From Thermoanaerobaculia bacterium (lineage in GTDB: Bacteria; Acidobacteriota; Thermoanaerobaculia; Multivoradales; SZUA-115): a DNA stretch of 64,000 nt. Shown here one piece after another: positions 39,295 to 57,133 of the stretch. Below the pieces are notes generated by a model. It was not told the origin of the DNA. It saw only the letters and a list, made by a program, of their open reading frames with translations, and did no database searches. The stretch is from positions 216,207-280,206 of the forward strand of contig JAXLQX010000004.1 in the NCBI GenBank assembly GCA_046331405.1. Direction: 5' to 3'. Position numbers and translations under genes: made by a program. Each line of letters starts with the position of its first letter. Within the stretch, counting starts at the first letter, position 1.

Positions 39295-41475
39295 ATGGTA
39301 GGGCGCGCTTTCGCCTCGCTCGGTCTGTTCACTGCGCTGGCTCTCGCTCAAGCTCCGGTCGCTCGAGCCGGCGCCCGGCTGGTAAAGGACATCGACACCA
39401 CCCACCAGCCCACGGTGGTCTTCGGCTTCTTCGGCGAGCCGTATTTCTTCTACGGCTCTTTGCCGGAGCAGCTGACCGCCGTCGACGGGCGCCTCTTCTT
39501 CGCTGCGAACGATCGCGTGGCCGGCCTCGAGCTCTGGCAGAGCCAGGGCAGCGAAGGCAGCACTCGCCTGGTGGCAGACGTCTGCCCCGGCCGCTGTGAC
39601 GCCAGACCGAGGATTCTCGGTGAGTCCGGAGGCTTTCTCTACTTCTTTGCGGACGACGGCACCCATGGCTTCGAGCTCTGGCGGACCAACGGCGCCGCGG
39701 GCGGTACCAAGAGGGTGGCGGATCTCTGCCCCGGCCCCTGCGGGCAGGTGGAGTTCCTGCCGCCGACCCGGCTGGCAGCCCCACTCGCCGGCGGGCTCTA
39801 CTTTCCGGCCCGCACTGCCGTCGGTGCGGACCAGAGCCTGTGGCGCACGGACGGCACGAGCGAAGGCACCGTGCCGGTGTTCGAGCGACCGCCGGCGGGA
39901 GGGAGAGCGCTCAGCATCGATCGGCTGACGGTCGAGGCGGGGCAGCTCCTCTTCGTGGTCAACCTGGGCTCGCAAGAGGAGCTGTGGGCGAGCGATGGCC
40001 GGCCGGGAGGCGCCCGGCGAGTGTGGCAGGCCTGTGGCGGAGGCTCGGGTACCATCGCCGGCATCGCTGTCGCCCGCGGAGCCTGGTACTTCGCCGAGCA
40101 TTGCCAGGCGGGGGGCAGTGCGCTCTACCGGGTTTCCGGCGAGGACGCGCCACAGCAGCTGTTCCAGGTGGCTTCCGAGGGGCTGGCCCCGGTGACCCTC
40201 GCCCTGTCCGGGGATCGGCTGTTCTTCACGGTGTACCCGCCCCACCTCGGCCTCGCGGAGCTCTGGGTGAGCGACGGCACTCCGGGAAGCGAGCGGATGC
40301 TGCTGCGCCTGGGGTTCATCGAATGGCTGACCCCGGCCGGGAACAAGCTGGCCTTCGCCGGCACGGAGCTGGGCGTAACGCGGCTCTACGAGAGCGACGG
40401 CACGACGACCGGTACCCGAGCGGTTTCGGACCTGCCCTTGGTCTGGAGTCGGAACCTCCCGGGCGCGTTCACGCCGTCGCCGCTCGCCTTCGTGGACGGC
40501 AAGGTGCTCTTCCCGGGCTGCGGTAGCGCCGACGACTGCGAGCCCTGGAGCTACGACCCGACCACCCGAGAAACCCGACTCTTGGCCGATATCGCGCCGG
40601 GGCCGGTTCCCTCCCTGCCGGCCCAGTACGTGGCCGTGGGCGAGCAAGTGTTCTTCACGGCGACGCATCCGGAGACCGACCAGGAGCTTTGGGCTCTCGA
40701 TCGCCACGACCTCGACCCGCGCCGCTGCCAGCCGAGTGCCGAGCGGCTCTGCCTCGGGGACGGTCGCTTCAGCGCCGAGGTGCGCTTCCTGGGGCCGGCA
40801 GGCGAGGCGAGCGGCCAGGCCGTGCCGCTCTCCGGTGAAGCCGGCGCCTTCTGGTTCTTCGACCGCGAGCTGCCGGAGCTGACGGTGAAGATCCTCGACG
40901 GCCGCGACTTGAACGGTGCCTTCTGGGTGCTCTGGGGCAGCCTTTCGGATCGGGCCTACACCCTGGAAGTGACCGATCTCTCGACCGGCGCTCGCAAGCG
41001 CTTCACCAACCCGGCCGGCAACCTCTGCGGCGGGGCGGACGTGAGCGCCTTCCCGGCCGCGGGTCGAAGCCAGAGCCGCGCCGAGTTCCCGCCCGAGAGG
41101 TCGCTCTCGGGCCGCGGCTCTTCTCTGGGCTGCGCGCCGAGCTCGGAACGGCTCTGCCTGGGGGAGAACGGCACGATCGCCGTGAGCGTGACCTGGAGAG
41201 TGCCCGGCTCAGGCCTCGCCGGCACCGGCACGGTGTTCGAGGCGGGAGAGCGAGGCGGGTTCTTCTCCTTCTTCGCTCCCGGCAACCTCGAGCTGGCGGT
41301 GAAGCTGGTGGACGGCCGGGGCCTGAACGGCAAGCTGTGGTTCTTCTGGGCGGCGCTTTCGGACGTGGACTACACCCTCACCCTGGTGAACACCGAGACC
41401 GGCGAAGAGCGCCATTACACCAACCCCGCCGGCCAGCTCTGCGGCGGGGCGGACGTTCAGGCGCTCACGCCCTGA
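39295..41475 (+). CDS. secreted ELWxxDG-repeat protein with two tandem copies of a Cys-flanked ~110-aa C-terminal module
   Basis: Signal peptide MVGRAFASLGLFTALALAQAPVARA. At least 7 ELWxxDG-type repeats (ELWQSQGSEGSTRLVADVCPG, ELWRTNGAAGGTKRVADLCPG, ELWVSDGTPGSERML, ...). C-terminal modules CQPSAERLCLGDGRFSAEVRF...NPAGNLCGGADVSAF and CAPSSERLCLGENGTIAVSV...NPAGQLCGGADVQAL. Confidence 0.7.
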   Translation: MVGRAFASLGLFTALALAQAPVARAGARLVKDIDTTHQPTVVFGFFGEPYFFYGSLPEQLTAVDGRLFFAANDRVAGLELWQSQGSEGSTRLVADVCPGRCDARPRILGESGGFLYFFADDGTHGFELWRTNGAAGGTKRVADLCPGPCGQVEFLPPTRLAAPLAGGLYFPARTAVGADQSLWRTDGTSEGTVPVFERPPAGGRALSIDRLTVEAGQLLFVVNLGSQEELWASDGRPGGARRVWQACGGGSGTIAGIAVARGAWYFAEHCQAGGSALYRVSGEDAPQQLFQVASEGLAPVTLALSGDRLFFTVYPPHLGLAELWVSDGTPGSERMLLRLGFIEWLTPAGNKLAFAGTELGVTRLYESDGTTTGTRAVSDLPLVWSRNLPGAFTPSPLAFVDGKVLFPGCGSADDCEPWSYDPTTRETRLLADIAPGPVPSLPAQYVAVGEQVFFTATHPETDQELWALDRHDLDPRRCQPSAERLCLGDGRFSAEVRFLGPAGEASGQAVPLSGEAGAFWFFDRELPELTVKILDGRDLNGAFWVLWGSLSDRAYTLEVTDLSTGARKRFTNPAGNLCGGADVSAFPAAGRSQSRAEFPPERSLSGRGSSLGCAPSSERLCLGENGTIAVSVTWRVPGSGLAGTGTVFEAGERGGFFSFFAPGNLELAVKLVDGRGLNGKLWFFWAALSDVDYTLTLVNTETGEERHYTNPAGQLCGGADVQALTP

Positions 41476-52558: not shown

Positions 52559-53644
52559 ATGATTTCGCAAAGACCTCGAGTGTCCCGAGGAGTGCTGACC
52601 CGTTCCTGGCTGGCCGCGGCCGCGCTGCTTCTCGCCGGCGCCGCGCCGACCCTGGCCCAGCCCTTCGGGGTGTGGGTGAACACCAGCGGCCCCACCCAGA
52701 CCGGCCGCATCTCCATCCCCCACAGCGCCGCTCTCAACCCCACCACCGCCACCACGGTGGAGGCCTGGGTGCTGTTCAACTCCGAGGTCGCGGGCGAGGA
52801 TTGCCGCAGCATCGCCGGCAAGGACTACACCGCCGCCTGGTGGATCGGCCGCTGCGGCGGCCAGCTGCGCTCCTACTTCCGGGGCGGCGGCTCGGCCCAT
52901 ACCGGCGGCGTGATTCCCCTCCACCAGTGGACCCACGTGGCGGCCACCACGGACGGCAGCCGAGTGAAGCACTACATCAACGGTGAGCTGGTGCTCGATC
53001 AGCCCGCCGGCGGCTCGCCCACCACCAGCACCGCCGAGATGCGCATTAGCAGCGACGTCTCCTGGGAGCACCCGCCCTCGGGCTCGCTCGATGAGATCCG
53101 CCTGTGGAGTGTGGCCCGCACCGAGGCGCAGATCCGCAGCACGCTCAACGTGCGGGTGAACAGCGCGATGACCGGCCTGGTGGGCGTGTGGCCGCTCGAG
53201 GCCAACGCCAACGACATCATCGGCGGCCACAACGGAGCCGTGGTGGGTACGGGAGTGGTGTTCTTCACCTCGCCCGTCACCCTGACCTGCGGTGCCTCGA
53301 CATCCACGTCGCTGTGCCTGAACGGCCATTTCGCGGTTTCCGCCCGCTTCCGCACCGGGGCCCCAGGAACGGCGGAGAGCCAGGCGCACACGGTGAACTG
53401 CCCCAACCCCGGCTCGGGCCTGTTCTACTTCTTCGCTCCGGACAACTGGGAAGTGATGGTCAAGCTGATCGACGGCTGCGGCCTGAACAGCCGCTTCTGG
53501 CTGTTCTCCGCCGCCACCACCAACGTGTTCTACCGCATGGAAGTCACCGACGTCCGGGCCGGTGAGAACAAGGTGTACTTCAACTACCCCGGCCCGCCGG
53601 CCCCCGCCGTCACCGACGTCAGCGCTTTCGCCACCTGCCCGTAG
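52559..53644 (+). CDS. secreted LamG (concanavalin A-like lectin) domain protein with one copy of the Cys-flanked C-terminal module
   Basis: Signal peptide (LAAAALLLAGAAPTLAQP). Laminin_G_3-like motifs (ATTVEAWVLFNS..., LDEIRLWSVARTEAQI). C-terminal CGASTSTSLCLNGHFAVSARF...FYFFAPDNWEVMVKLIDGCGLNSRFWLF...AFATCP is homologous to the tandem modules of the 39295 gene. Confidence 0.7.
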   Translation: MISQRPRVSRGVLTRSWLAAAALLLAGAAPTLAQPFGVWVNTSGPTQTGRISIPHSAALNPTTATTVEAWVLFNSEVAGEDCRSIAGKDYTAAWWIGRCGGQLRSYFRGGGSAHTGGVIPLHQWTHVAATTDGSRVKHYINGELVLDQPAGGSPTTSTAEMRISSDVSWEHPPSGSLDEIRLWSVARTEAQIRSTLNVRVNSAMTGLVGVWPLEANANDIIGGHNGAVVGTGVVFFTSPVTLTCGASTSTSLCLNGHFAVSARFRTGAPGTAESQAHTVNCPNPGSGLFYFFAPDNWEVMVKLIDGCGLNSRFWLFSAATTNVFYRMEVTDVRAGENKVYFNYPGPPAPAVTDVSAFATCP

Positions 53645-53701: not shown

Positions 53702-56092
53702 CTAGGGGAAGCTCGAAGCCCAGGCCGAGGTGTTCCCGCTCTCGAAGCCGTCCAGGAAAATCGACGACACCGAGGTGCCCACGATCCCCACCGGCATGTG
53801 GGTATCCGGCACGGCGGCGTTGTTGGGCGTAAGCACCAGCTGGCCGAACTGGTAGCTGCCGAGGGGCAAGAGGTAGCTCACGAAGGCGTCGACGGTGATC
53901 GTCTGCGTGGCCCCGGCGGCGAGAGTGAAGCTCGAGGGGGTGGCGCGGATCACCAGGCCTGCCGGGCCCAGCTTCGAAGCGGTCCAGGTGAGGCTGCCGG
54001 TGGTGGCGTTCTTCACCGTGCGGGTCCAGGAGCAATGCCCGGCGCAAGCGCTGTGGTCGAAGCTCGCGATGTTGAGCGTGCGCGGGTTGCCGCCCATGCC
54101 CGGATCGGCCGCCAGGAAGTTGGCCTGGGTCTCGTGGAGGATCAAGCCGGCGCGCCCGGCCCGGGTGAGCTCCACTCGGCCGGCGCCCATGTCGTTGGGG
54201 TCGGCGGGGGTCAGCCCATCCTCCTTGAGCACGGTCAGATCCGAGGTGGTCATCAGCGCCGACTTCACCTCCGGAGGCGTCCAGCTGGGGTGGAGCGAGC
54301 GCACCAGGAGGGCCGAGCCGGCGGTGTGCGGGCTCGACATCGAGGTGCCGGAGAGCAGGCCGAAATCCGGCGTGAAGTTGGCCACCGAAGCCTCGTGGAC
54401 GGCGGCGATGATGTTCACGCCCGGGTTGGCCACATCGGGCTTGAGCACGTCGAAGGAAGTGTTCGGGCCGCGGGAGCTGAAGGAGGCCAGGATGTCGGCC
54501 ACCGCCGGGTCGGTAACGATCGCCGAGGCGGTGATGGTGCCGGTATGGCCGCTGCCCGAGGCGAGCCAGGTGCGCAGCGCGTTGGCCGGGGCCTGGTCCA
54601 CGTGGATCGCCGGCAGGATGTGCGGGTCGGCCACGGTGCCGGTCTCGGTCAAGTTGCCGAGGATGCAGCCGGAAGCGCTGCCGGCGGCGACGTTGGCGCA
54701 TTTGGTCACCCGCGCGATGCCCTGGCCGCGGTCGCACATCACGATCTTGCCGGTGAAAGTGCCGCCGGCGAAGGGCGCGCTGCACTGGCCGTCCAGCGGG
54801 TCCCCCGGCGGGAAGGCGTCGAAGTCGCGGGCGTGGACGATCGGCAGCGGGCCGATGGCGCCGGTTCTCGAGGTGCCCTGCATGTCGGCCGGAGGCGAGG
54901 TGCCGCCGGTCATGCCGGTCAGGTTGTTGAACACGTTGACCCGGTCGTGGGTGGCAGCCGCCACGGTGATCACCCAGGGGCCGAGGTGGCCCACGGTGGA
55001 GGCCGTGGGGCCCGAGTTGCCGGCGCTCGCCGAGACGAAGACGCCGGCCGCCACGGCGTCGAGGAAGAAGGTGTCGATGTCCCCGCTCCACGGCGTGCCG
55101 CCGCCGCCGATCGAGTAGTTGATCGCGTCCACACCGTCGAGGATCGCCTGATCGGCCGCCGCGGAGGTGGCCGCGAAGGGGCACAGGCCCTGGCCGGAGG
55201 AGTTGGTGTAGCAGGCGTCGTAGGTGATCAGGCTGGCGTGAGGGGCCACGCCGGAGAGGGCCGGGCTGGTGAGGATATTGCCCACCGCCGTCGAGGCGGT
55301 GTGGCTGCCGTGGCCGTTGTCGTCCTCGGGGCCGTCCGCTTCCGAGCAGGTTCCGGGGTTCGCCGTGCAGTAGGCGTCGGTGTAGTCCCAGGCCGCGTAG
55401 AGCTTGTCGTTGCAGGCGTAGGAGGGGTTGTAGTTCGGGTTGGCGGGGTCGCACCAGCCGCCGTAGACGCCCGAGCCCAACGGGTTGACGTAGGTGTAGC
55501 CGTCGCTCGGCGTGGCCGAGTAGGAGGGGTGGTGCATGTTCACGCCGGTGTCGATGTCGCCCAGCACCATGCCTTCGCCCTTGGTCCCCGGCAGGCCGCC
55601 GGTCTGGCTACCGTCCCAGATGGTCGGGGCGCCGATCCAGGTGGGGCCGCGGTCGGTGTCGACGGGCACCTGGTAATCCGGCACCACGCTGCGCACGAAG
55701 CTCTGCTCGGCCACCTGGGAAGCCTCGGCGGGCGAGAGGCGGATCGCCACGCCGTTGCCGGCGGCCCGGTAGGCGAAGAGCACGGGCATCGACCGCGCCA
55801 GCAGATGCTCCAGCGAATCGAGGTGCTGGCGCTGGAGGGTGGCGAGATAGTCGAGGTAGGCGCGGCTCGCCGGGCTCTTGGCGTCGAGTTTCACTTCGCC
55901 GCGGGCCGCGGGGTTGGTGGCCTCCAAGCCTGCCACGCCGCCGGTGTAGCGGGCGAGCGGCGGCTCGCTGAAGAGCACCACGTAGTAGCCCGAGGGCGAT
56001 GCCTGGATGGGGCCGGCCTGAGCGGGCGAGCCGGCGAAGAGGGCCAGGAGAGAGAGAACGACGGAGAGGACCACACGTCTCGGAGTCATCAC
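53702..56092 (-). CDS. secreted subtilisin-like serine protease (peptidase S8) with N-terminal I9 pro-domain, PA-like insert and C-terminal extension
   Basis: Signal peptide MMTPRRVVLSVVLSLLALFAGSPAQA. Catalytic triad motifs VLGDIDTGV (Asp), HGSHTASTAVGN (His), GTSMSSPHTAGSAL (Ser); 796 aa. Confidence 0.88.
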   Translation of the reverse strand: MMTPRRVVLSVVLSLLALFAGSPAQAGPIQASPSGYYVVLFSEPPLARYTGGVAGLEATNPAARGEVKLDAKSPASRAYLDYLATLQRQHLDSLEHLLARSMPVLFAYRAAGNGVAIRLSPAEASQVAEQSFVRSVVPDYQVPVDTDRGPTWIGAPTIWDGSQTGGLPGTKGEGMVLGDIDTGVNMHHPSYSATPSDGYTYVNPLGSGVYGGWCDPANPNYNPSYACNDKLYAAWDYTDAYCTANPGTCSEADGPEDDNGHGSHTASTAVGNILTSPALSGVAPHASLITYDACYTNSSGQGLCPFAATSAAADQAILDGVDAINYSIGGGGTPWSGDIDTFFLDAVAAGVFVSASAGNSGPTASTVGHLGPWVITVAAATHDRVNVFNNLTGMTGGTSPPADMQGTSRTGAIGPLPIVHARDFDAFPPGDPLDGQCSAPFAGGTFTGKIVMCDRGQGIARVTKCANVAAGSASGCILGNLTETGTVADPHILPAIHVDQAPANALRTWLASGSGHTGTITASAIVTDPAVADILASFSSRGPNTSFDVLKPDVANPGVNIIAAVHEASVANFTPDFGLLSGTSMSSPHTAGSALLVRSLHPSWTPPEVKSALMTTSDLTVLKEDGLTPADPNDMGAGRVELTRAGRAGLILHETQANFLAADPGMGGNPRTLNIASFDHSACAGHCSWTRTVKNATTGSLTWTASKLGPAGLVIRATPSSFTLAAGATQTITVDAFVSYLLPLGSYQFGQLVLTPNNAAVPDTHMPVGIVGTSVSSIFLDGFESGNTSAWASSFP

Positions 56093-56254: not shown

Positions 56255-57133
56255 TCAGCGCTTGCGGTTGCCGTCGTCGTCGTAGTCGTAGATGCCGCGG
56301 CCCGCTTTGCGGCCGATGCGGCCGGCGCGAACGTACTGCACCAGCAGGTTGTTGGGGCGATAGGCCTCGCCCAGGGTGCGGTGCAGGAACTCGAGAATCG
56401 ACAGCCGCACGTCGAGCCCCACCAGGTCCACCATCTCGAAGGGACCCATCGGGTGGTTCAGGCCCAGCTTCAGGGCCTTGTCGATGTCCTCGGCGCTCGC
56501 CACCCCTTCCTGCAGCATGCGGAAGGCCTCGTTGCCGATCAGGGCGTTGATCCGGCTGGTGACGAAGCCCGGGGATTCGTTCACCAGCACCGTCTCCTTG
56601 CCCATGCGATGGGAAACCGCCTTGGCCATCTCCACCGCGCTCTCGGAGGTCTCCAGGCCGCGAATCACTTCCACCAGGCGCATCAGGTGCACCGGGTTGA
56701 AGAAGTGCATGCCGATGAAAGAGCGCGGTCGGTCGGTGCCGGCCGCCATCTCGGTGATCGAGAGCGCCGAGGTGTTGGAGGCGAAGATGGCGCCGGCCGG
56801 GCAGTGTCGGGCCACCTTCTGGAAGATCTCGATCTTCAGGTTCATGGACTCCGGCACCGCCTCGATCACCAGGTCGGCGGCGCCCACGGCATGGCTCAAG
56901 TCGCTCGAGAAGGACAGGCGGCCGGTGGCCGCTGCGGCCACCTCGGCGGCGAGCTTGCCGAGCTCCACACCCTTGTCCAGGTTCTTGCGGATGCGCTTGT
57001 CCGCGCTTTCGAGGGCGGAGGAGTTAACGTCGAAAAGACTGGTGGTGTAGCCGGCCACGGCAGCCACCTGGGCGATGCCCCGGCCCATGGTGCCGGCACC
57101 GAGCACGGCGATGCGGGAGAGGTCGTGACTCAT
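56255..57133 (-). CDS. hbd: 3-hydroxybutyryl-CoA / 3-hydroxyacyl-CoA dehydrogenase
   Basis: IAVLGAGTMGRGIAQVAAVAGY NAD-binding motif; 3HCDH N- and C-terminal domains; 292 aa. Confidence 0.85.
   Translation of the reverse strand: MSHDLSRIAVLGAGTMGRGIAQVAAVAGYTTSLFDVNSSALESADKRIRKNLDKGVELGKLAAEVAAAATGRLSFSSDLSHAVGAADLVIEAVPESMNLKIEIFQKVARHCPAGAIFASNTSALSITEMAAGTDRPRSFIGMHFFNPVHLMRLVEVIRGLETSESAVEMAKAVSHRMGKETVLVNESPGFVTSRINALIGNEAFRMLQEGVASAEDIDKALKLGLNHPMGPFEMVDLVGLDVRLSILEFLHRTLGEAYRPNNLLVQYVRAGRIGRKAGRGIYDYDDDGNRKR

What the first reader, a model, noticed from the sequence alone, without database searches (positions are those of the whole stretch)
40720..41475. Cys-flanked ~110-aa C-terminal module shared by two unrelated secreted proteins (tandem in 39295-41475; single in 52559-53644)
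Three copies share C-x5-7-LCL ... F-x-FF-x-P-x-N-x-E-x-x-VK-L-x-DG-x-x-LN-x-x-FW-x-x-x-A-x-x-S/T-x-V-x-Y-x-x-x-V-x-D-x-x-x-G ... NP(A)G ... A-x-x-D-V-x-A-F. The carriers are an ELWxxDG beta-propeller-like protein and a LamG lectin-like protein. I cannot name the module. It could be a C-terminal sorting, anchoring or secretion signal domain, or a carbohydrate-binding module.
Basis: seen in the sequence. Interest (0 to 1): 0.55.

Follow-up and report, generated by a model that had tools for sequence, protein, structure and literature searches.

The report
Unnamed secreted-protein module of Acidobacteria
The three copies are real members of a very large, uncatalogued family of about 115-residue, disulfide-bonded, all-beta domains that Thermoanaerobaculia-type Acidobacteria attach, mostly at the C-terminus, to many unrelated secreted proteins; it most likely acts as a binding or retention module, but its function is untested.

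Summary
The three copies are at 40726-41064, 41131-41472 and 53288-53641. Pairwise BLASTP gives E = 4e-31, 7e-22 and 1e-16. There is no fourth copy in the window.

The carriers are an ELWxxDGT-repeat protein and a LamG protein. The LamG protein is 100% identical to a Thermoanaerobaculia MAG protein. Both have signal-peptide-like N-termini.

The module matches nothing in Pfam-A, NCBIfam or PDB sequences. An exhaustive profile search found 10,460 cluster representatives, 5,176 of them at E <= 1e-30. Every hit that carries an organism name is from Acidobacteriota.

Two AlphaFold models (pLDDT 94 and 96) give the same roughly ten-strand beta domain. Foldseek found no PDB match (best E 0.12, TM <= 0.36).

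The module is mobile:
- It occurs with 51 different Pfam families among 63 carriers scanned.
- It usually ends at the stop codon (90 of 94 genomic cases), as one copy or a tandem pair.
- It also sits directly after the signal peptide or internally, in at least 16 unrelated carrier families.
- It also exists as a stand-alone "signal peptide + module" gene.

The internal and terminal copies of a pair are equally conserved. This argues against a strictly C-terminal sorting signal and for an autonomous binding or retention module. The ligand is unknown. I rate it a new domain family, possibly a new fold, of moderate interest.

The parts
39295..41475 (+). Gene for protein A (726 aa): signal peptide, ELWxxDGT repeats, then two tandem modules.
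   Evidence: ORF. NCBIfam TIGR04534 ELWxxDGT_rpt, E = 2.3e-61, 8 stretches. GC3 0.87. A JGI homologue with the same architecture is named 'ELWxxDGT repeat protein' (P0162).
39295..39369 (+). Probable Sec signal peptide of protein A (about aa 1-25, MVGRAFASLGLFTALALAQAPVARA). The cleavage site is not determined.
   Evidence: Crude hydropathy test: 12-residue window mean 2.0 with an upstream Arg. The A-x-A sites come from my own reading. No dedicated predictor was available.
40726..41064 (+). Module copy 1 (aa 478-590 of protein A).
   Evidence: HMM envelope. BLASTP to copy 2 E = 4e-31 and to copy 3 E = 1e-16. It departs from the family consensus at N53L and V80R.
41065..41130 (+). 22-residue linker between the two modules (RSQSRAEFPPERSLSGRGSSLG).
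   Evidence: Sequence. Family-wide inter-module linkers have a median of 34 aa and are Ala/Ser/Pro/Gly-rich.
41131..41472 (+). Module copy 2 (aa 613-726 of protein A), ending at the stop codon.
   Evidence: HMM envelope. AlphaFold2 model m25a2e4ecfce7 has pLDDT 94.2, pTM 0.87, about ten beta strands and one short helix. It departs from consensus at R16T, F17I and D88N.
52559..53644 (+). Gene for protein B (361 aa): signal peptide, LamG domain, then one module.
   Evidence: ORF. It is 100% identical to the NCBI protein 'MAG: LamG domain-containing protein [Thermoanaerobaculia bacterium]' (P0223). At least 918 homologues at E <= 1e-10 were found. The 120 listed are full-length, 54-68% identical, and carry only PF13385 as precomputed annotation.
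52559..52657 (+). Probable Sec signal peptide of protein B (aa 1-33, ending TLA|QP).
   Evidence: Hydropathy test: mean 2.28 with 4 upstream Arg. The cleavage site is my own reading.
52700..53134 (+). Laminin_G_3 (concanavalin A-like) domain, aa 48-192 of protein B.
   Evidence: Pfam PF13385, E = 1.8e-21.
53288..53641 (+). Module copy 3 (aa 244-361 of protein B), the four-Cys subtype, ending ...AFATCP then stop.
   Evidence: BLASTP to copy 2 E = 7e-22 and to copy 1 E = 1e-16. It contains the DGC / ATC Cys pair that co-varies across the family.

Best explanation
The three segments are copies of an autonomous, extracytoplasmic, disulfide-stabilised all-beta domain of about 115 residues. It forms a large, so far uncatalogued domain family.

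Shown here:
- The family is confined, as far as named sequences show, to Acidobacteriota of the Thermoanaerobaculia/Holophagae type.
- The domain folds on its own, joined to its carrier by flexible Ala/Ser/Pro/Gly linkers.
- It has been shuffled onto dozens of unrelated Sec-exported proteins: proteases, beta-propellers, LamG, PKD/fn3 arrays and beta-helices. It usually appears as the last one or two domains.
- Position (C-terminal, N-terminal, internal, alone) and copy number vary while the sequence stays conserved.

Inferred:
- Its role is non-catalytic and generic rather than tied to one enzyme.
- It most likely acts as a binding module that targets or retains exported proteins on a common ligand, such as a cell-envelope or matrix glycan of the producer or an environmental polymer.
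- It would do so through the near-invariant polar residues (R16, N53, E55, K59, D62, N67, D88, N99, D110) and the conserved aromatic residues (W23, F46-F49, W71, F73, Y82, Y97).
- Tandem copies would add avidity.

In protein A it would tether an ELWxxDGT propeller, and in protein B a LamG lectin-like domain.
For: Homology and family size:
- Pairwise E-values are 1e-16 to 4e-31.
- The profile search found 10,460 cluster representatives at E <= 1e-3 and 5,176 at E <= 1e-30.

Autonomous fold:
- Two independent AlphaFold2 models have pLDDT 94.2 and 95.7 and pTM 0.87 and 0.88, with the same strand order.

Extracytoplasmic location:
- 99 of 131 carriers that start with Met, and both window proteins, have signal-peptide-like N-termini.
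- The C3/C11 pair is present in 97-98% of instances.
- A second Cys pair (columns 64 and ~117) co-varies: 176 instances have both, 92 have neither, 8 have one.

Mobility:
- 51 Pfam families occur among 63 carriers.
- 116 C-terminal carriers fall into 43 unrelated families.

Position independence:
- 19 N-terminal and 9 internal cases among the best 150, spread over at least 16 families.
- The two copies of a pair are equally constrained (148.9 vs 150.1 bits) and no position distinguishes first from second.
- Real stand-alone 'signal peptide + module' genes of 148-151 aa exist in two assemblies.
- Linkers have a median of 34 aa and are A/S/P/G-rich.

Conserved polar and aromatic positions.

Lineage restriction:
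- All 79 genome loci kept are from Acidobacteriota or unnamed MAGs.
- All named protein hits are from Acidobacteriota.
- There is no match in 72,556 plasmids.
Against: - No binding has been shown and no ligand can be named.
- Foldseek finds no similarity to any lectin, CBM or other solved fold, so the binding role rests on architecture alone.
- No glycoside hydrolase appears among the 25 most frequent carrier families listed. This is unlike classical CBMs.
- About 96% of genomic instances end within 15 residues of the stop codon. A purely position-independent binding module would not obviously need that.
- I had no model coordinates, so I could not check that the conserved polar and aromatic residues cluster on the surface. 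They may be structural.
Confidence: 0.45

Rival explanations
1. The module is a C-terminal export or sorting domain. A lineage-specific outer-membrane translocation or attachment machinery would recognise it, functionally like the T9SS C-terminal domain of Bacteroidota. It may then be cleaved or used for covalent surface attachment.
For: - 90 of 94 genomic instances end at the stop codon, as do 122 of the best 150.
- The carrier spectrum is the one typical of sorted cargo: S8, M12B and M23 proteases, PKD, fn3, propellers, LamG, beta-helix.
- The family is lineage-restricted and multi-copy per genome, with up to 4 loci per MAG found by only two narrow peptide patterns.
- The domain ends precisely at ...AF or ...ATCP followed by the stop codon.
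Against: - N-terminal and internal placements occur in at least 16 unrelated families with full conservation.
- Tandem pairs are common (27 of 94), and the internal copy is as conserved as the terminal one.
- Stand-alone signal-peptide-plus-module genes have no cargo.
- No recurrent neighbouring gene suggests a dedicated machinery.
- There is no HMM match to any known sorting domain.
Confidence: 0.2
2. The module is a protein-protein docking or oligomerisation unit, dockerin-like in logic. It would assemble many different exported proteins onto a common scaffold or onto each other, through the conserved aromatic strands (LFWFF, FWVF).
For: - Three central strands carry conserved hydrophobic or aromatic residues on both faces. 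This fits an interaction surface.
- The carriers are diverse and mostly carry the module C-terminally.
- Copies within one protein are more alike (65%) than copies in different proteins (54%).
Against: - No partner (cohesin-like) family was identified.
- No neighbour is enriched.
- The majority of genomic cases are single copies (63 of 94).
- The nine near-invariant polar residues fit a small-ligand or glycan site at least as well.
Confidence: 0.15
3. The module is a folding or stabilising accessory, like a PPC-type pre-peptidase C-terminal domain or an intramolecular chaperone, and is removed on maturation. It would have no binding role of its own.
For: - Some carriers are secreted peptidases: S8, reprolysin-like, M23, M64.
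- It is usually C-terminal, in one or two copies, as PPC domains are (my own knowledge of PF04151).
Against: - Most carriers are not peptidases.
- Stand-alone genes exist.
- The very strong conservation of polar surface-type residues across 627 instances exceeds what a passive stabiliser usually shows.
- There is no HMM match to PPC.
Confidence: 0.08

Closest known systems
T9SS C-terminal sorting domain (Por_Secre_tail; TIGR04183 / PF18962) of Bacteroidota
   Same: Both are small all-beta domains that end at the C-terminus of many unrelated exported proteins (proteases, PKD/fn3 arrays, propellers, LamG). Both are lineage-restricted and occur many times per genome.
   Different: There is no sequence match. 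This module occurs in tandem, N-terminally, internally and alone. The host phylum is Acidobacteriota, not Bacteroidota. Foldseek found no resemblance to any solved structure.
Carbohydrate-binding modules and lectin-type accessory domains of secreted enzymes
   Same: Both are autonomous beta domains of about 100-120 aa joined by flexible linkers. Position and copy number vary, aromatic and Asn/Asp/Glu/Arg residues are conserved, and stand-alone forms exist.
   Different: No CBM or lectin HMM or structure matches. Glycoside hydrolases are not among the 25 most frequent carrier families listed. The ligand is unknown.
Bacterial pre-peptidase C-terminal domain (PPC, PF04151)
   Same: Both are C-terminal beta domains in one or two copies on secreted proteases.
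   Different: There is no HMM match. Most carriers here are not peptidases. Cleavage on maturation is untested.
Dockerin / SLH-type attachment modules
   Same: The logic is the same: one module appended, N- or C-terminally and often repeated, to many different exoproteins of a lineage to localise them.
   Different: The fold class is entirely different (all-beta, disulfide-bonded). There is no Ca-binding repeat signature, no identified receptor, and no HMM match.

Membership tests
T9SS C-terminal sorting domain (TIGR04183 / PF18962) | Matches the family HMM. | tested here: not met
   Pfam-A and NCBIfam scans of both window proteins, and Pfam-A scans of 19 module sequences, give no hit at E <= 1.
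T9SS C-terminal sorting domain (TIGR04183 / PF18962) | A single copy, strictly at the extreme C-terminus of a cargo protein. | tested here: not met
   Tandem pairs occur in 27 of 94 genomic frames. N-terminal and internal cases occur in at least 16 families. Stand-alone genes exist.
T9SS C-terminal sorting domain (TIGR04183 / PF18962) | The host genome encodes T9SS components (PorU/PorV/SprA and others). | not tested
   Only 64 kb of the source genome was available. The hosts are Acidobacteriota MAGs. No search for T9SS genes was made.
Carbohydrate-binding module / lectin families | Sequence or fold similarity to a catalogued CBM or lectin family. | tested here: not met
Carbohydrate-binding module / lectin families | Demonstrated binding to a carbohydrate. 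| not testable with these tools
   This needs purified protein and glycan or polysaccharide binding assays.
Carbohydrate-binding module / lectin families | Preferential association with carbohydrate-active enzymes. | tested here: inconclusive
   No glycoside hydrolase appears among the 25 most frequent of 51 Pfam families in 63 carriers. The other 26 families were not listed. LamG, lactonase-type propellers and Vgb_lyase are present.
PPC pre-peptidase C-terminal domain (PF04151) | Matches the family HMM and sits on secreted peptidases. | tested here: not met
   There is no Pfam hit. Peptidases are a minority of carriers.
Dockerin (PF00404) / SLH (PF00395) | Matches the family HMM, with the duplicated Ca-binding segment (dockerin) or the SLH motif. 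| tested here: not met
   There is no Pfam hit. The predicted structure is all-beta.
ELWxxDGT repeat proteins (TIGR04534), carrier A only | Matches the repeat HMM above its cutoff. | tested here: met
   203.7 bits against a cutoff of 65, with 8 stretches. This applies to aa ~60-470, not to the module.
Laminin_G_3 (PF13385), carrier B only | Matches the domain HMM above the gathering score. | tested here: met
   77.3 bits against 27.6, aa 48-192. This applies to the N-terminal half, not to the module.

The most novel reading that the evidence does not exclude
The module is a previously undescribed protein fold. It serves as the common address tag of a Thermoanaerobaculia/Holophagae-specific system for displaying or assembling exoproteins, an acidobacterial counterpart of the T9SS C-terminal domain or of dockerin-cohesin. 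A still unidentified receptor or machinery would recognise its invariant R/N/E/K/D/N/D/N/D and aromatic surface.
Probability: 0.15. Interest if true: 0.75.

Novelty: new variant of a known kind. Interest (0 to 1): 0.5.

Why it matters
Thermoanaerobaculia and related Acidobacteriota are abundant in soils and sediments and are almost entirely uncultured. How they export, position and use their many large extracellular proteins is unknown.

A single, highly conserved module marks thousands of their exoproteins and is invisible to Pfam, NCBIfam and PDB. That has three uses:
- It is a ready-made marker for predicting the exoproteome of the lineage.
- It is a candidate new domain family, and possibly a new fold, for the databases.
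- It gives a concrete handle (one small, well-predicted domain) for testing what anchors or targets these proteins.

For the window itself, it explains the unannotated C-terminal third of two 'hypothetical/LamG/ELWxxDGT' proteins.

Tried and rejected
Searches that found nothing:
- Pfam-A, NCBIfam and PDB-sequence searches of the module: only noise at E >= 0.012.
- Foldseek of two models against PDB and of one model against the viral BFVD library: no match at E <= 0.001. Weak, inconsistent similarity (TM <= 0.42) to levivirus coat proteins, PilZ/Cap15 small barrels and a phage tail was rejected as noise.
- tblastn of a stand-alone module against 72,556 plasmids: no match.
- Three literature searches: no description found.

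Tools that could not run:
- The search for related loci with the broad alignment A2 failed because no stretch was conserved enough. A narrower alignment, A4, worked but biases the loci towards one subtype.

Context analyses that gave no lead:
- Synteny around orthologues of protein B: no conserved operon.
- Neighbour enrichment over 79 loci: no recurrent partner gene.

Ideas rejected:
- Short two-module proteins P0079 and P0144 as 'stand-alone' evidence. They lack signal peptides and are probably truncated gene calls. They were replaced by P0453, P0445 and P0454, which are genuine.
- An outer-membrane beta-barrel. The domain is too short, has short strands and has conserved disulfides.
- My recollection that similar 'LCL...FWFF...FWVF' domains occur in other phyla. 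Every named hit here was from Acidobacteriota.
Full report
**1. What is in the window**

The window is 69.6% G+C. Protein A is encoded at 39295-41475 (+) and is 726 aa long. Protein B is encoded at 52559-53644 (+) and is 361 aa long. Both have the codon-position G+C pattern of real genes.

Protein A matches the NCBIfam ELWxxDGT repeat model (TIGR04534, E = 2.3e-61, eight stretches). Protein B has a Laminin_G_3 domain at aa 48-192 (PF13385, E = 1.8e-21). Neither library covers the last ~250 aa of A or the last ~118 aa of B.

Both N-termini look like Sec signal peptides: basic residues, then a hydrophobic stretch, then an A-x-A-like site. This rests on a crude hydropathy test and my own reading, because no dedicated predictor was available.

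**2.

The three segments align over their whole length. Their positions are:
- Copy 1: nt 40726-41064.
- Copy 2: nt 41131-41472.
- Copy 3: nt 53288-53641.

Pairwise BLASTP gives the following:
- Copy 1 vs copy 2: E = 4e-31, 48% identity.
- Copy 2 vs copy 3: E = 7e-22, 41% identity.
- Copy 1 vs copy 3: E = 1e-16, 35% identity.

A profile of the three, run with all filters off over the six-frame translation of the window, finds only these three copies. The next hit has E = 3.3.

**3. It is a very large, uncatalogued family**

A 19-sequence profile (A2) was read against 1.84 billion cluster representatives. It matched 10,460 proteins at E <= 1e-3 and 5,176 at E <= 1e-30.

None of the module sequences matches Pfam-A. 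The window proteins match no NCBIfam model over the module. Profile searches of all PDB chain sequences give only noise. Carrier proteins scanned against Pfam never show a family covering the module. Source databases call these proteins 'hypothetical protein', 'LamG domain-containing protein' or 'ELWxxDGT repeat protein'. Three full-text literature searches found nothing on it.

**4. Who has it**

Protein B is 100% identical to an NCBI protein from a Thermoanaerobaculia MAG (P0223).

Every protein hit that carries an organism name comes from Thermoanaerobaculia, Holophagales or Acidobacteriota.

A scan of one genome per GTDB species with two peptide patterns gave 376 confirmed sites. All of the 79 loci kept are from Acidobacteriota (Thermoanaerobaculia, Holophagae, 'Candidatus Multivoraceae') or unnamed MAGs. 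Up to four loci come from one MAG.

There was no match in 72,556 plasmids.

Two caveats apply. The patterns favour one subtype, and only the best 80 of the 376 sites were shown. Presence in other phyla at lower similarity is therefore not excluded.

**5. Structure**

Two AlphaFold2 models were made. One is of window copy 2 with 19 aligned sequences. The other is of a consensus-like member, P0028, with 86 aligned sequences. They have pLDDT 94.2 and 95.7 and pTM 0.87 and 0.88. Both show the same order of about ten beta strands plus one short helix after the longest strand.

Foldseek against 350,542 PDB chains gave no hit at E <= 0.001 for either model. The best values were E = 0.12 and 0.38, with TM no higher than 0.36. 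The viral structure library also gave nothing.

**6. Sequence anatomy**

This rests on 627 unique instances. These positions are near-invariant: C3, C11, L12, R16, F17, W23, G44, F48, F49, N53, E55, K59, N67, W71, F73, A76, V80, Y82, D88, G92, Y97, N99, G102, D110, A113.

The C3-x7-C11 pair is present in 97-98% of instances. A second Cys pair, the C of 'DGC' at column 64 and a C at the very end ('ATC-P'), is either present together or absent together. Both occur in 176 instances, neither in 92, and only one in 8. This is the signature of a disulfide.

Two main subtypes follow from this:
- The four-Cys subtype ('AATTNV...TD..AFATCP'), to which copy 3 belongs.
- The two-Cys subtype ('GALS.V.YT...DT.AF' then stop), which copies 1 and 2 resemble.

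Copies 1 and 2 also carry a rare Cys at column 106 ('LCGGAD'), seen in 6 of 627 instances. They also deviate at a few otherwise >= 95% conserved positions. Copy 1 has N53L and V80R. Copy 2 has R16T, F17I and D88N. They are thus somewhat divergent members.

Conserved disulfides together with signal peptides place the domain outside the cytoplasm. This is an inference.

**7. Architecture across the family**

Among the best 150 representatives (a set biased towards multi-copy proteins), 122 end with the module, 19 have it directly after a signal peptide, and 9 have it internally.

In the less biased set of 79 genome loci, 94 reading frames carry the module:
- 63 have a single copy ending within 15 residues of the stop codon.
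- 27 have a tandem pair ending there.
- 3 are not C-terminal.
- 1 runs off the contig end.

The 63 carriers scanned contain 51 different Pfam families. These include PKD, fn3, lactonase-type and other beta-propellers, Peptidase_S8, reprolysin-like, M23 and M64 peptidases, Laminin_G_3, Vgb_lyase, FG-GAP, Beta_helix and Chlam_PMP.

By BLAST single-linkage clustering, 116 C-terminal carriers fall into 43 unrelated families. The 28 N-terminal or internal carriers fall into at least 16.

Linkers between tandem modules have a median of 34 aa and are rich in Ala, Ser, Pro and Gly.

In 122 two-copy proteins, the first and second copies score the same against the profile (148.9 vs 150.1 bits). No column distinguishes first from second. 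Copies within one protein are 65% identical, against 54% between proteins.

Proteins consisting only of a clear signal peptide and one module exist: P0453, P0445 and P0454, of 148-151 aa. Two of them are shown to be independent genes in a conserved setting, between a methyltransferase gene and a lipid A acyltransferase-family gene, in two assemblies.

**8. What this implies for function**

Shown: the module is an independently folding, mobile, exported unit. Its sequence constraint does not depend on its position in the protein or on the nature of the carrier.

Inferred: its role is generic and non-catalytic.

A strictly C-terminal sorting signal does not fit three findings:
- The N-terminal and internal cases.
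- The equally conserved internal copies of pairs.
- The cargo-less stand-alone genes.

I therefore rank a binding or retention module first (about 0.45). In this reading it targets exoproteins to a shared ligand, with tandem copies adding avidity. The nine near-invariant polar residues plus the many conserved aromatics are what lectin and CBM sites look like. I could not map them on coordinates.

The strong C-terminal bias keeps a sorting or attachment tag alive as a rival (about 0.2). A protein-docking unit (about 0.15) and a PPC-like maturation accessory (about 0.08) follow.

Genomic context gives no help. Orthologues of protein B have no conserved operon. Across 79 loci no neighbouring gene family recurs, although 7 loci hold 2-3 module genes side by side.

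**9. Comparison with known families**

In logic the module resembles the T9SS C-terminal domain, CBMs and lectins, PPC domains, and dockerin or SLH attachment modules. It fails the testable membership criteria of each: an HMM match, and for T9SS also strict terminal single-copy placement. I do not file it under any of them. The carriers themselves are ordinary members of the ELWxxDGT and Laminin_G_3 families.

**10. Verdict**

It is a new domain family, possibly a new fold, within a familiar category: accessory modules of exoproteins. It is large and lineage-restricted. Interest is moderate (0.5). It would be higher if the module turned out to be the address tag of a lineage-specific display system.

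Noticed in passing
window 41526-48719 (-): Directly downstream of protein A, on the opposite strand, lies a 2397-aa Tc-toxin/Rhs-type polymorphic toxin. Its Pfam domains are SpvB, FG-GAP, TcdB_toxin_midN, RHS_repeat and PT-HINT. The last ~125 aa after the HINT domain match no Pfam family and contain 'IQDGRHRF'. From memory this resembles a ParB/sulfiredoxin-type nuclease motif, which I did not test. The longest-ORF start is probably too far upstream, because a signal-peptide-like 'MRFRSTLLLLCLL' begins at aa 67.
   Followed up: partly
window 48613-49536 (-): A 307-aa Vps62-domain protein (PF06101, E = 7e-21) lies immediately upstream of the toxin gene. It may be part of the same toxin locus.
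   Followed up: no
window 53702-56092 (-): A secreted-looking S8 subtilase with PA and fn3_6 domains converges on protein B. It does not carry the module. It ends in 'FLDGFESGNTSAWASSFP', a short tail of unknown meaning.
   Followed up: no
window 41029-41046 and 41437-41454 (both module copies of protein A): Both copies carry an extra Cys in 'LCGGAD' (profile column 106). This is found in only 6 of 627 family instances. Each copy therefore has three Cys, and an inter-module disulfide between the two copies is conceivable.
   Followed up: partly
window 40726-41472 and 53288-53641: The window's copies deviate at positions that are >= 95% conserved family-wide. Copy 1 has N53L and V80R. Copy 2 has R16T, F17I and D88N. 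Copy 3 has R16H. If those residues form the functional site, the copies in protein A may be weakened or retuned.
   Followed up: partly
L082 8001-8447 and L083 1410-1865: The stand-alone 'signal peptide + module' genes sit between a class I methyltransferase gene and a convergent Lip_A_acyltrans (lipid A acyltransferase family) gene in two assemblies. This is a faint hint of a link to the cell envelope.
   Followed up: no
window 56255-57133 (-) and L080 9117-9995: A 3-hydroxyacyl-CoA dehydrogenase gene lies downstream of the LamG+module gene in the window and in an orthologous locus. In the window the S8 peptidase gene is inserted between them.
   Followed up: no
L044 / L071 (contig JAAELT010000636.1), L021, L035, L038, L041, L055: Some genomes carry two or three module-bearing genes side by side. 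This suggests local gene duplication or clustering of exoprotein genes.
   Followed up: no
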